Assembly (NCBI GenBank): GCA_013265495.1
Contig: MU058221.1
Span: forward strand, 1,798,001-1,862,000
From: Vicugna vicugna
Taxonomy: Eukaryota
DNA length: 64,000 nt
Direction: 5' to 3'
Shown here: in pieces, positions 13,790-40,780 of the stretch
How positions within the stretch are numbered: the first letter of the stretch is position 1
Layout of the letters: each line of letters starts with the position of its first letter
Translations under genes and position numbers: made by a program
Notes under the pieces: model-generated
The model's database searches: none
Told to the model about the DNA's origin: nothing
What the model saw: only the letters and a program-made list of their open reading frames with translations

Positions 13790-15180
13790 TTTCAAATTGA
13801 GGTCAGATGTATACAACCTAAAGTTAATTAACCCTTTTAAAGGGTACAATTCAGCGGAATTTAGTGTGTTTACAATGTTATGGGACTGTCATTTATATTG
13901 AATTCCAAAATATTTCCATCATTGCCAAACAGATCTTGTACAAATTCCTCACTCCCCAGCCCCAGCCCCTGGCAACCACTAAGCTACTCTCTGTCTGTAT
14001 AGATTTTACTTATCATGGATATTTTGAGTTAACGGACTCATACAACATGTGTCCCTTTTGTGTCTGGCTTCTTTCACTCAGCAGAATGTTTTTAAGGTTA
14101 TCCATGTTGTAACACGTCCCAGTACATCATTCCTTTTATAACTGAATACAGTTTAATCATATGGATACAGCGCATTTTGTTTGTCCATTCAACAGGTGGA
14201 TATCTGGGTTGTTTCTGCCTCTTTTGACTATTGTCAGTAGTGCTGCTGTAAACATTTGCACACAAGTGTTTCTTTTAATACCTGTTTTCAATTACTTGGC
14301 GGTTTATACCTCGGAGAGGAGTTGCTGGGCCATATGGTAATCTTCTATTTCACTTTTTGTTGAACTACCAAACTGTCTTCAAAAGTGGCTGCACCATTTT
14401 ACATCCCCACTAACAACTTCTCCACATCCTTACCAGCATTTGTTATTTTTCTTTTTTGATGAATCGCCATACTGATGGGTGTTATGGGGTAATTGTGGTT
14501 TTCATTGCATTCCCCTAATGACTAGTGATCTCGAACCTTGTTTCATGTGCTTATTGGTCATTTATATATGTTCTTTGGAGAGTGATTTACTCAAGTACTC
14601 TGCCCAGTTTTTAAAATATATTTTTATTGAAATATAGTCAGTTTACAATGTTGTGTCAATTTCTGGTGTGCAGCACAGTGCACCAGTCACACAGAAACAT
14701 ACATATATTTGTTCTCACGTTCTTCTTCACCATAAGTTACTCCAAGATATTGAATATGGTTCCCTGTGCTCTACCGTATAAACTTGCTGTTTATCAGATT
14801 TTGTGAGAATCCTCCTGTATTTCAAAATGAGACACACTCTGCGAGAGTTCAGTAGGTATCCTGTGTGATTCAGTGGGTTCGTAGATGTAATTCTTGGTGT
14901 ATTTGTGGGAGAGGGTGAGCTGTGAGTCTCTCTACTCCACCATCTTGGCTCTGCCCCCCTCTGCCCATTTTTTAGTTGAGTTGTTTATCTTTTTCTTGCC
15001 AAATTGTAATAATTATACATTCTGGATACTAGACCCTTTCAGATAGATGAATTGCAAATATGTTCTCCTGTACGATAGTTACATTTTCACTTTCTTAGTA
15101 GTATTCTTTGATGCACAAAAATTTTTATTTTGAAGATGTTCAATTTTTTTCTTTTGTGGATGGTTTTTGGTGTCTCACAT
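13790..15180 (-). mobile_element. L1MB-type LINE-1 3' portion
   Basis: cagcccctggcaaccactaa, tgtctggcttctttcactcagcagaatgttt, ggctgcaccattttacatcccc, ttctggatactagaccc. Confidence 0.85.
14614..14958 (-). mobile_element. Mini-L1: L1 5'UTR start (~164 nt) fused to L1 3'UTR end (~180 nt), TSD-flanked
   Basis: Minus strand begins GGGGGCAGAGCCAAGATGGTGGAGTAG...CTCACCCTCTCCCACAAATACACC (L1 5' terminus with YY1-type CAAGATGG). It joins the young L1 3'UTR at 14795/14794. TSD ctctgccca(g/t)ttttt at 14598-14612 and 14959-14973. Confidence 0.85.
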
Positions 15181-15697
15181 GTGTTCATTCTTAACATAAG
15201 GCAAGTGGCTGGGATGCAAGGTAAAAGCAGCTGAAAAAGTGAAGCTGAGGTTTTGTGTTCTTGCTGCTCTAGAGAGAAAAAAAGCTAAAAGAAGAACCCC
15301 CAAGAAGGAAGTTATTAATTTGGGGCCAAAAAAAAAAAGAATTAAATCAAGATAGACAAAGAATATAATCCAGCCTCTAGTCAGCTCCGGCCCTGACTGG
15401 CTAAGGTGAGGAGCCCCACTGGGGCCGCCGGAATCCTGTCTCCAGGAAGGTACTGCCACACAGAACGCCACCTCCCACCCGGGACAAGCAGACTGTAGAA
15501 AATTGCCATTAATTCTGAGAAACAGAACCAGAAGTTAAAAGCCAAAAATAGAACCGACACACGAATATTCCAGGTAAACGCTATTAGACAGAGAGTTGAA
15601 CATGATTGTGATGAAACAGTCAAGAAATTGGGTGACAAGATGGAGAATTTCACTGGAGAACTCGAATCTAATTTTTAAAAATCAAATGGAAATTCTA

Positions 15698-15958
15698 CAC
15701 AGACATAGAATACAGACTTGTGGTTGCCAAGGGGGCGGAGGGTGGGAACGGATAGACGGGATTTCAAAACTGTAGAGTAGATAAACAAGATTATACTGTA
15801 CAGCACGGGGAAATATACACAAGATCTTGTGGGAGCTCACAGAGAGAAAAATGTGACAATGAATATACATATGTTTATGTATAACTGAAAAATTGTGCTC
15901 TACACTGGAATTTGACACAACACTGTAAAATGGTTATAAATCAACAAAAAATGGTAAA
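15698..15958 (+). mobile_element. Young L1 3'UTR fragment with TSD
   Basis: Closely matches 10427-10700. TSD aa(a/g)tg(g/a)aaattcta at 15684-15697 and 15959-15972. Confidence 0.9.
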
Positions 15959-16519
15959 AAGTGAAAATTCTAGAACTAAAGAACACGAAAGCTGAAACTA
16001 AGAACTCAACAGATTCATAGAAAAAGCAGACCGAATGCAACTAAGAACACAATTTGTGAACTAGAAGACAGGTCAGTCGAACATTCGCAGACTGAATCAT
16101 AACAAAAAATATGGAAAATTCAGAAAAGAGCATAAAAGACACTTAGGACAACGTGAAACAATCTTAACGTAAAGGTGATTAGCGTCTCAGATGAGAAAGA
16201 GAGAGGGTGGGCAGGGGCAATGTTTGAGGATATAATGACCAAGAATTTCCCCCAAGTTGAACGACATCAAATCAGAGTCAAGAGTCAGTATAAACCTAAG
16301 CAGAATAACAGATCAAGAAAACCGCCGCGGGCTCATCAGAGCAAGTCTGCAGAGAAGCAGAGACTAAAGAGCAATCTTAGAAGCATCCAGATACCAAAGA
16401 GATACCTGCTCTCCCACGTTCACTGCAAGTTATCCTCAAAAGCCAAATATGGAAAGAACATTAAGTGTCCATTAATGGATGCACGGATAAAGAAAATAGA
16501 CAGGCAGACAGATAGATAA

Positions 16520-19019: not shown

Positions 19020-20185
19020 TGCCAAGCCACGTGTGTGACGTAGCACAGCCCTCCCCCCTCTGCCGTCGTGAGTGCCAAATCCCACACAGTGGTAGCGCCA
19101 CCAGCCCGGATCCTTGACTAAGGATGGCGGAGCACAGCGTCCAGCTGGTAGGTCAGCATCAGCATGAGCGTGGGGAAAAACAGGTGTGTTCACTGACTGT
19201 TACCAGAGCGTAGCCTAGCTTGGCCTGTCAGACCGACGGGGCAGGGCGGGGGAGGGGGGCAGGAGGCAAAGGCATTGCCGGGGGAAAGCAGAACGAGAAT
19301 GGCTACGGTCACGTGGGGAAATAACCCAGGACTTGGCGTCAGACAAACTGAAGTTTCCTGGCTGTGTGACCTTGGGAATGCTGCTTAACCCCTCTGAGCC
19401 TGTTTCTTCATCAGTTGCTTCCATAAATGAATTAATATTGCCCCAGGATCTGTCACATTGCCAGTATTCATTACATTTAATTGAACCTTCTATGCCCTCT
19501 CCTGCCAACCCACACACACCGCAACAAAATGGAACCCTGTCCTATTGTTTATAACTGGCCGTGGCTGAAATTCCCCCTCTGACGGGGTGAGGAACCATCT
19601 CCGGAGTAAGGACTCTCCTTTGCTGCTCGTGATGCCCTAGAGCCTCGGTGTCTAGGCGGACACTCAGCTGTGCGCACGCTGAAAGCCAAGCCGCCACGCG
19701 CCCAGCGCGCAGAAGAACGACACGGGACGGCGCTGCCGCGGAGCCAGCCCCACGCGCCACGCGGCCGGCCAGGCACGCCCTCGGCCCGCGCCGGGCGAGA
19801 GCGCCAGCGAGCGGCGGGCGGCAGCCCAGGAGCCCCGGGTGGCGCTGAGAACGTCGCTGAAAACGGCCGACTCCTCCCAGATCAGAGTTGCAACTCCTCA
19901 CGTGACTTTGGACCGGAAAGGAGGCATGAAGTCGTCGGGCACCTTGAACGTGCACGGGCACCACCCCGCCACGACGAGTCACGGGCGGTGACGTCTTTCA
20001 CAGCGCAAGGGCTTGGGGAAGAAAAGGCAAAGAAACTACCAGGAAACGGTTATTACGGGAGGCGGATGAGCTAAGCTGACTGGTAACAAAGCGGCGTGCA
20101 TAGGGCGTGTCCCAGCTACGTCACAGGGAGACGATTGGACGCCCACCAAGACAGGGGTTTCTGACGGTTCATAACCGTGTGTTCC
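19020..20185. promoter_or_regulatory. CpG-island promoter, TATA-less, orientation undetermined
   Basis: Dense CpG core ~19560-20130. E-boxes CACGTG 19028, GTCACGTGG 19308, TCACGTGAC 19898. CRE-like TGACGTA 19036, TGACGTCT 19989, TACGTCA 20117. ETS-like CCGGAA 19913. ATTGG (NF-Y) ~20134. MYB-like AACGGTTA 20045 and ACGGTT-cat-AACCGT 20164-20178. GC boxes 19238-19259. Confidence 0.75.
19340..19460 (+). mobile_element. MIR SINE fragment
   Basis: ggctgtgtgaccttgggaatgctgcttaacccctctgagcctgtttcttcatc. Confidence 0.8.
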
Positions 20186-40362: not shown

Positions 40363-40363
<1 letters not shown>

Positions 40364-40402
<39 letters not shown>

Positions 40403-40406
40403 TTTT

Positions 40407-40452
<46 letters not shown>

Positions 40453-40512
40453 TTCCTTCCTTCCTTCCTTCCTTCCTTCCTTCCTTTCTTTCCTTCTTTC
40501 TTTCTCTTTCTT
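40364..40512. repeat. Compound (TTTC)n/(TTCC)n microsatellite at an L1 tail
   Basis: Directly visible; abuts the antisense L1 3' end. Confidence 0.95.
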
Positions 40513-40780
40513 ATTTACAATGTTGTAGTCATTTCTGGTGCACAGCATACTGATTCAGTTACACACACACACACACACATACACACACACATTCTTTTCC
40601 ATATTCTTTTTTATTATGAGTTACTACAAGCCACTGAATATAGTTCTCTCTGCTACACAATAGGACTCTGTTGTTGTCTATTCTTTACATAATAGTTTAT
40701 GTCAGCCAATCCCAAACTCCCAGTTTATCCCTCCCTCTCCCCTTTTCCCCAGGTAATGACGTTTGTTTTCTATCCGTATC
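40513..40780 (-). mobile_element. Young L1 3'UTR fragment with internal (CA)n
   Basis: tttacaatgttgt...tttctggtgcacagcat...cccaaactcccagtttatccct. Confidence 0.85.

What the first reader, a model, noticed from the sequence alone, without database searches (positions are those of the whole stretch)
14598..14973. TSD-flanked ~345-bp mini-L1: 5'UTR joined directly to 3'UTR (spliced L1 or LINE-derived SINE candidate)
Seen: on the minus strand the insert starts with a LINE-1 5' terminus (GGGGGCAGAGCCAAGATGG...) and runs ~164 nt to ...CACAAAATCTG. It then continues in the same orientation as ATAAACAGCAAG..., the last ~180 nt of the young L1 3'UTR plus A-tail, all within one TSD, so it integrated as a single unit. 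In two other L1 copies here (15780/15781 and ~49971) this ATAAAC is immediately preceded by AG. Established: spliced integrated L1 elements (SpIREs) are known in primates; the L1 5' end carries the internal Pol II promoter/YY1 site, and the polyA tail is what ORF2p needs. Inference: both ORFs were removed as one intron, leaving a minimal promoter+tail module that could be a non-autonomous family of this lineage. Caveat: the inferred acceptor lacks a good polypyrimidine tract, so an internal deletion is the alternative.
Basis: partly seen in the sequence, partly recalled or inferred. Interest (0 to 1): 0.75.

Follow-up and report, generated by a model that had tools for sequence, protein, structure and literature searches.

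The report
Spliced, gene-less mini-L1 retrocopy
This 345-base insert is the front end of an L1 jumping gene joined straight to its tail, the same join occurs at other places in related genomes, and it most likely arose when both L1 genes were spliced out of the RNA and the leftover was likely pasted back by another L1's proteins, an extreme form of something already known in humans.

Summary
Confirmed. On the minus strand, 164 nt of an L1 5' end (14958-14795) join the last 181 nt of an L1 3'UTR (14794-14614). Both lie inside one 15-16-nt target-site duplication at a TTTT/A site. It is not a single accident: 9 of 32 listed contig pieces from four public runs cross the same join yet differ from this copy by 12-18%, giving at least three other loci in one run. 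The join fits splicing. AG precedes the 3' part in 4 of 5 L1 copies in the window, and an unjoined relative continues with G after the breakpoint. The donor's T is only inferred and the acceptor has no pyrimidine tract. Best reading: L1 RNA with both ORFs removed as one intron, retrotransposed in trans, probably made repeatedly from ordinary L1s. It is an old copy, not a young one. Whether such copies self-amplify is open. Closest known: human SpIREs, which keep ORF2. Nine literature searches showed no such form; Repbase and Dfam could not be checked. This scan noted the same kind of element before on other DNA, in this genome and others (unchecked notes).

The parts
14959..14974 (-). 5'-side target-site duplication; TTTT/A endonuclease-type site at 14970-14974 on the plus strand
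   Evidence: site consensus from PMC5860796 section 8
14795..14958 (-). first 164 nt of an L1 5'UTR (putative first exon); likely holds the start of the internal Pol II promoter (recalled, not tested)
   Evidence: public contigs begin matching at 14949-14958; conceptual translation 66% identical over 44 aa to an unjoined relative, P0001
14932..14943 (-). three-codon upstream ORF overlapping a YY1-like core (motif recalled) that has T for C at 14939
   Evidence: translation; table 3
14794..14795 (-). the join; the G at 14795 is shared by the 5' part and by the AG of unjoined 3'UTRs, so the breakpoint is fixed to within one base
14614..14794 (-). last 181 nt of an L1 3'UTR (putative last exon); lacks the first about 145 nt of the 3'UTR, including its G-rich tract
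14623..14628 (-). AATAAA polyadenylation signal, followed by an AT-rich stretch and no separable poly(A) tail
   Evidence: sequence
14598..14613 (-). 3'-side target-site duplication (1 mismatch to the other copy)
14134..14396 (-). host flank: older L1 ORF2 relic on the same strand, into which the element inserted
   Evidence: 69-71% identical to ORF2 ends of the window's other L1 copies; that the other flank is the same relic is recalled, not shown (searches found nothing)

Best explanation
The element is a DNA copy of an L1 RNA from which the rest of the 5'UTR, ORF1, ORF2 and the first part of the 3'UTR were most likely removed as one intron, and which was then likely reverse-transcribed into the genome by proteins of another, intact L1. 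Shown: two L1 ends in one orientation inside one TSD at an endonuclease-type site; no coding capacity; AG before the 3' part and G after the 5' part in unjoined relatives; the same join at other loci. Inferred: the T of the GT donor, the splicing reaction itself, mobilisation in trans (forced by the lack of ORFs), and that copies were made repeatedly from ordinary L1 transcripts rather than from a few mini-element masters. A 345-nt RNA would integrate whole far more often than a full-length L1, so a modest rate of mis-splicing could leave many recognisable copies.
For: AG at the equivalent position in 4 of 5 window copies. Unjoined relative P0001 reads S-G-R-R-K where the window reads S-D-K-Q-Q in the same frame, so the base after the breakpoint is G. 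G in place of A at 14794 in 28, 25, 22 and 8 contigs of the four runs (26-47% of depth), while 0 of 5 window 3'UTRs have G after their AG. The two breakpoints share AAAAT, but the join keeps the 5'-side CT after it and falls on the single shared G, as GT..AG splicing would give. 9 of 32 listed pieces bridge the join with 31 or more letters each side; three overlapping ones in run X1 differ from the window by 12.5-18.1%, and one has 304 letters of its own flank. Bridging pieces are as far from this copy (mean 14.4%) as 5'-side-only pieces (mean 14.1%). Precedent: SpIREs, TSDs of 6-25 bp, 5'UTR/ORF1 forms needing ORF1p in trans (PMC5860796); L1 splicing is prominent in human testis (PMC2896524 passage).
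Against: The acceptor is poor: 7-9 pyrimidines in the 20 nt before AG; a yUnAy branch motif in only 2 of 4 copies, at -17 and -12, against 34% of random 27-nt stretches. Donor +2 is the wobble base in P0001 and was never read; P0001 is one sequence. The G at 14794 could also come from joined copies whose crossover lies a few bases later, which would favour template jumping. No raw RNA reads were laid: the two bridging RNA contigs differ from the window by 13-16% and may be read-through or DNA. The divergence comparison uses only the 32 longest pieces, which favours diverged copies, repeats loci across runs, and cannot tell whether a 5'-side-only contig is joined or unjoined.
Confidence: 0.55

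Rival explanations
1. Born by splicing, then self-amplifying: one or a few integrated mini-elements kept enough of the internal promoter to be transcribed and were copied again by L1 proteins, forming an ORF-less non-autonomous family.
For: Multiple loci share the join; the element keeps the true L1 5' end and a polyadenylation signal; earlier unchecked notes speak of a few hundred copies.
Against: No tight young cluster among listed pieces; human SpIREs lose promoter activity and are dead ends; one contig in each of three runs joins near the same 3' point to a different or diverged 5' part (14792 to 14887, weak), and earlier notes give lengths of 334-615 nt, which suits repeated origin.
Confidence: 0.22
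2. No splicing: reverse transcriptase jumped, or DNA was deleted, between two look-alike points of an L1 (AAAAT..G..TA), either repeatedly at a hotspot or once in a founder that then amplified.
For: The two breakpoints share AAAAT and a G; the acceptor is weak; G at 14794 in 26-47% of depth could be joined copies with a later crossover; internal deletion is the accepted origin of bipartite LINEs (PMC5786205).
Against: In this copy the crossover is not in the five-base match but on the single G that gives G..AG ends; G plus AG in one of two registers has roughly a 3% chance, GT plus AG under 1% (simple base-frequency estimate, not a tool result).
Confidence: 0.19
3. A one-off: two separate insertions or a later local deletion of a single full-length L1.
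For: None beyond the lack of a second joined copy in this 64-kb window.
Against: One TSD encloses both parts; at least three other loci carry the same join.
Confidence: 0.04

Closest known systems
SpIREs of human L1 (SpIRE97/622, 97/790, 97/976; Larson et al. 2018, PMC5860796; read: abstract, sections 7 and 8, first part of 17, passages)
   Same: L1 with its true 5' end, an internal gap bounded by splice-type signals, TSD, TTTT/A site; recurring at many loci (131 of 6,609 full-length L1PA1-6).
   Different: The SpIREs described lose part of the 5'UTR or 5'UTR plus the start of ORF1 and keep ORF2; here both ORFs and part of the 3'UTR are gone, so every L1 protein must come in trans. Non-primate lineage (camelid-like; recalled and from earlier notes, not tested).
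ORF-absent bipartite non-autonomous LINEs (RIME, NARTc, Bov-A, RTESINE, Vingi and R2 derivatives; Kojima 2018, PMC5786205; read: section 23, passages)
   Same: Only the 5' and 3' ends of a LINE; Pol II type; mobilised in trans.
   Different: That paper reports them only from RTE, Ingi, Vingi and R2 clades and ascribes them to internal deletion; they are self-propagating families, which is not shown here.
HAL1 (half-L1; seen only as passages in PMC5786205)
   Same: L1-derived, non-autonomous, lacks ORF2.
   Different: HAL1 keeps ORF1; this element has no ORF1.
Processed pseudogenes (established knowledge; passage in PMC5860796)
   Same: Spliced Pol II RNA copied in trans by L1 proteins, with TSD.
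   Different: The source gene is L1 itself, and the copy carries the start of an internal promoter.

Membership tests
SpIRE | flanked by a TSD of about 6-25 bp | tested here: met
   15-16 nt, one mismatch
SpIRE | inserted at a TTTT/A endonuclease site | tested here: met
   TTTTTT/AG at 14968-14975
SpIRE | 3' poly(A) tract | tested here: inconclusive
   AATAAA present; only five A's, shared with the TSD
SpIRE | gap begins with GT in unjoined L1 | tested here: inconclusive
   G shown; T inferred only
SpIRE | gap ends with AG in unjoined L1 | tested here: met
   4 of 5 window copies at the same position, 1 one base off
SpIRE | acceptor with a credible pyrimidine tract and branch point | tested here: not met
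   7-9 of 20 pyrimidines; yUnAy in 2 of 4 copies, no more than chance
SpIRE | spliced form seen in L1 RNA | tested here: inconclusive
   2 of 8 listed RNA contigs bridge the join but are diverged copies; contigs only, no raw reads
SpIRE | intra-5'UTR or 5'UTR/ORF1 splice, ORF2 retained (the described classes) | tested here: not met
   no ORF1 or ORF2 sequence; longest stop-free stretch 76 codons of UTR origin
ORF-absent bipartite non-autonomous LINE | only the 5' and 3' ends of the parent LINE | tested here: met
ORF-absent bipartite non-autonomous LINE | several independent insertions with the same structure | tested here: met
   at least 3 other loci in run X1
ORF-absent bipartite non-autonomous LINE | copies descend from integrated short masters | not testable with these tools
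   no genome held; contig letters are not returned
SINE (strict) | tRNA, 7SL or 5S head with Pol III promoter | tested here: not met
   0 tRNA genes; 2 Rfam matches, both far under their gathering scores
HAL1 | encodes ORF1p | tested here: not met

The most novel reading that the evidence does not exclude
A self-propagating, ORF-less, Pol II-driven parasite of mammalian L1, born by splicing both genes out of L1's own RNA: the first L1-clade counterpart of the bipartite elements known from RTE, Ingi, Vingi and R2, filling the SINE niche in a lineage reported to have almost no young SINEs.
Probability: 0.2. Interest if true: 0.75.

Novelty: new variant of a known kind. Interest (0 to 1): 0.5.

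Why it matters
It would extend L1 splicing from partial 5' losses in primates to removal of the whole coding region, give a fossil record of how often L1 RNA was diverted this way in a germ line, and offer a natural minimal substrate for trans-mobilisation of L1-derived RNA despite cis preference. If the copies self-amplified, it would break the pattern that L1-clade elements do not yield ORF-less bipartite families (PMC5786205), in genomes whose SINE content is reported as nearly all old MIRs (PMC8605555 passages). Repeat annotators would probably split such copies into two L1 fragments (inference).

Tried and rejected
No whole genome was held, so no genome-wide count or tree. Pattern scans for the L1 5' part found nothing useful: 0 in metagenome contigs for the breakpoint motif; a 20-mer gave 4 metagenome, 0 viral and 3 prokaryote-genome hits, all 7 matching only 20-22 nt, i.e. 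chance. Two word-index protein searches with junction-spanning frames found nothing; a profile search returned only P0001 among 20 candidates. The 76-codon frame is not proposed as a gene. RNA folding is no better than shuffles (z 0.36). The sigma-70 scan is irrelevant to a mammal and was ignored. Short flank peptides found no solved structure. Summed contig depth was not used as a copy number. Sequence and place look-ups in earlier findings gave nothing; one word look-up gave nothing. Belancio et al. 2006 was not held, so a 5'UTR-to-3'-end splice reported there cannot be excluded; supplements of PMC8605555 could not be read and might hold a matching consensus.

Full report
Observation. The feature is there as described. 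On the minus strand a 345-nt insert runs from 14958 to 14614. It is enclosed by CTCTGCCCATTTTTTA (14959-14974) and CTCTGCCCAGTTTTTA (14598-14613), 15 of 16 alike, about 2e-8 by chance for a given pair of places. The right copy reads TTTTTT/AG on the plus strand, which fits the TTTT/A site given for L1 endonuclease (PMC5860796 section 8). The distal downstream flank (14134-14396) is 69-71% identical to ORF2 ends of other L1 copies in the window, so the element sits in an older L1 relic. That the upstream flank continues the same relic is recalled resemblance; two short peptide searches found nothing.

The two halves. The last 181 nt are L1 3'UTR: 74-84% identical to four L1 3' ends in the window, one of which follows an ORF2p C-terminus (E 2e-55). 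The join lies about 145 nt into that 3'UTR, past its G-rich tract. The first 164 nt have no second copy in the window. In four public runs many contigs begin to match at 14949-14958, which marks a repeat family's 5' edge there. The element has no tRNA-like head and no ORF1 or ORF2 sequence. The lineage looks camelid; this is recalled and echoed by earlier notes, not tested. A review names L1-1_Vpa and L1-2_Vpa as the dominant mobile families of alpaca and camel (PMC10362595 passage).

Is it one copy? No genome was held, so I used public runs. 20 of 24 listed runs hold part of the stretch; 14 non-RNA runs of five coded organisms hold 22-24 of 41 words. I laid 4 of the 24. Of 32 listed pieces (82,358 more not shown), 9 bridge the join with at least 31 letters on both sides: 3 of 8 in X1, 2 of 8 in X2, 2 of 8 in X4, 2 of 8 in the RNA run X16. 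They differ from the window by 11.8-18.1%, so they are other loci. Three overlap within X1, and one of them has 304 letters of its own flank before the element's first base; a matching record appears in X2 and X4, so that insertion likely predates the split of those organisms. Could the alignments have run across the join by tolerance? If every difference is put on the shorter side, 4 of 9 still cannot be chance (P under 0.002); allowing 12% differences on the longer side, all 9 have P under 1e-7. The count of three loci is a floor.

The breakpoint. On the 3' side, AG directly precedes the joined part in 4 of 5 informative window copies and lies one base upstream in the fifth. On the 5' side there are two lines of evidence. 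First, a search of 1.84 billion proteins with the stop-free frame across the join returned one hit, P0001, an unnamed conceptual translation of an unjoined relative, 66% identical over 44 residues. It reads S-G-R-R-K-K-E-K-K where the window reads S-D-K-Q-Q, so the base after the breakpoint is G; the next base is the wobble position. Second, 28, 25, 22 and 8 contigs of the four runs have G for A at 14794 (26-47% of depth), whereas none of the five window 3'UTRs has G after its AG. For a 5'-side contig to show that difference its alignment should run on through the next base, which implies T; this is inference. The two breakpoints share AAAAT, but the window keeps the 5'-side CT after it and switches on the single shared G. 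That is where GT..AG splicing would cut and not where a microhomology jump would most simply land.

Against splicing. The acceptor has 7-9 pyrimidines in 20 and no branch motif beyond chance. The G at 14794 could also come from joined copies with a slightly later crossover, which would favour template jumping; I could not read those contigs. The two bridging RNA contigs are diverged copies and show no current splicing. P0001 is a single sequence.

Mechanism. Most likely an L1 of an older subfamily was transcribed, the spliceosome joined a donor 164 nt into the 5'UTR to an AG in the 3'UTR, and the short non-coding RNA was copied into the genome by ORF2p (and perhaps ORF1p) of another L1. Integration by target-primed reverse transcription is supported by the TSD and site. 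Action in trans follows from the absence of ORFs. Splicing is inferred. Whether integrated copies were transcribed and copied again is open. Bridging pieces are no closer to this copy (mean 14.4%) than 19 5'-side-only pieces (mean 14.1%), and one contig in each of three runs links nearly the same 3' point to a different or diverged 5' part. Both lean to repeated origin, weakly: the list favours long, diverged contigs, repeats loci across runs, and 5'-side-only contigs may themselves be joined copies.

Comparison. It works like a SpIRE but is not one of the described classes, which keep ORF2; those number 131 of 6,609 full-length human L1s and are judged dead ends (PMC5860796). One SpIRE regained activity from a host promoter (bioRxiv 10.1101/2025.02.02.635956 passage). 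In structure it matches ORF-absent bipartite LINEs, reported in 2018 only for RTE, Ingi, Vingi and R2 (PMC5786205 section 23). Nine searches listed no paper whose title or abstract start describes a 5'UTR-to-3'UTR spliced L1 or a camelid mini-L1. Passages of a camelid repeat survey had no 'spliced' or 'Vpa' (PMC8605555; supplements unreadable), and passages of PMC6726744 and bioRxiv 10.1101/2022.02.16.480772 added nothing. Belancio et al. 2006 was not held. Repbase and Dfam could not be searched, so an existing entry is possible.

Earlier notes. This scan recorded the same kind of element many times, in this genome and others (8 notes shown in each, two in both), with lengths of 334-615 nt and claims of a few hundred copies. 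They are unchecked and are not counted as support; they agree with the reading I entered before looking.

Verdict. Real, multi-copy, most likely splice-derived: a new variant of a known kind. Interest 0.5. If the copies prove to be a self-amplifying family (about 0.2), interest would be about 0.75.

Noticed in passing
table 5, joint 14792 to 14887: One contig in each of three DNA runs links nearly the same 3' point to the first about 72 nt of the 5' part, letters between not known: possibly a joined copy from another L1 subfamily or with another donor.
   Followed up: no
window 14872, table 7: Loose ends in X2 (33) and X16 (11) show another L1 subfamily that shares the first about 87 nt of this 5'UTR and then differs.
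   Followed up: no
window 14943-14932 (minus): A three-codon upstream ORF ends 137 nt before the join; a spliced RNA might therefore be a nonsense-mediated-decay target unless start-proximal escape applies (speculation).
   Followed up: no
window about 15690-15960 (plus): A 5'-truncated L1 3' end with a diverged TSD, apparently inside an older L1 relic; it lacks 20-30 nt just before the AG that other copies have.
   Followed up: partly
window 40363-40505: A (TCTT)n microsatellite of about 36 units directly adjoins the tail of an L1 3' end at 40514.
   Followed up: no
window about 19500-20100: GC-rich stretch with a short GC-rich tandem repeat (19791-19843), possibly a promoter island; the host gene context was not worked out.
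   Followed up: no
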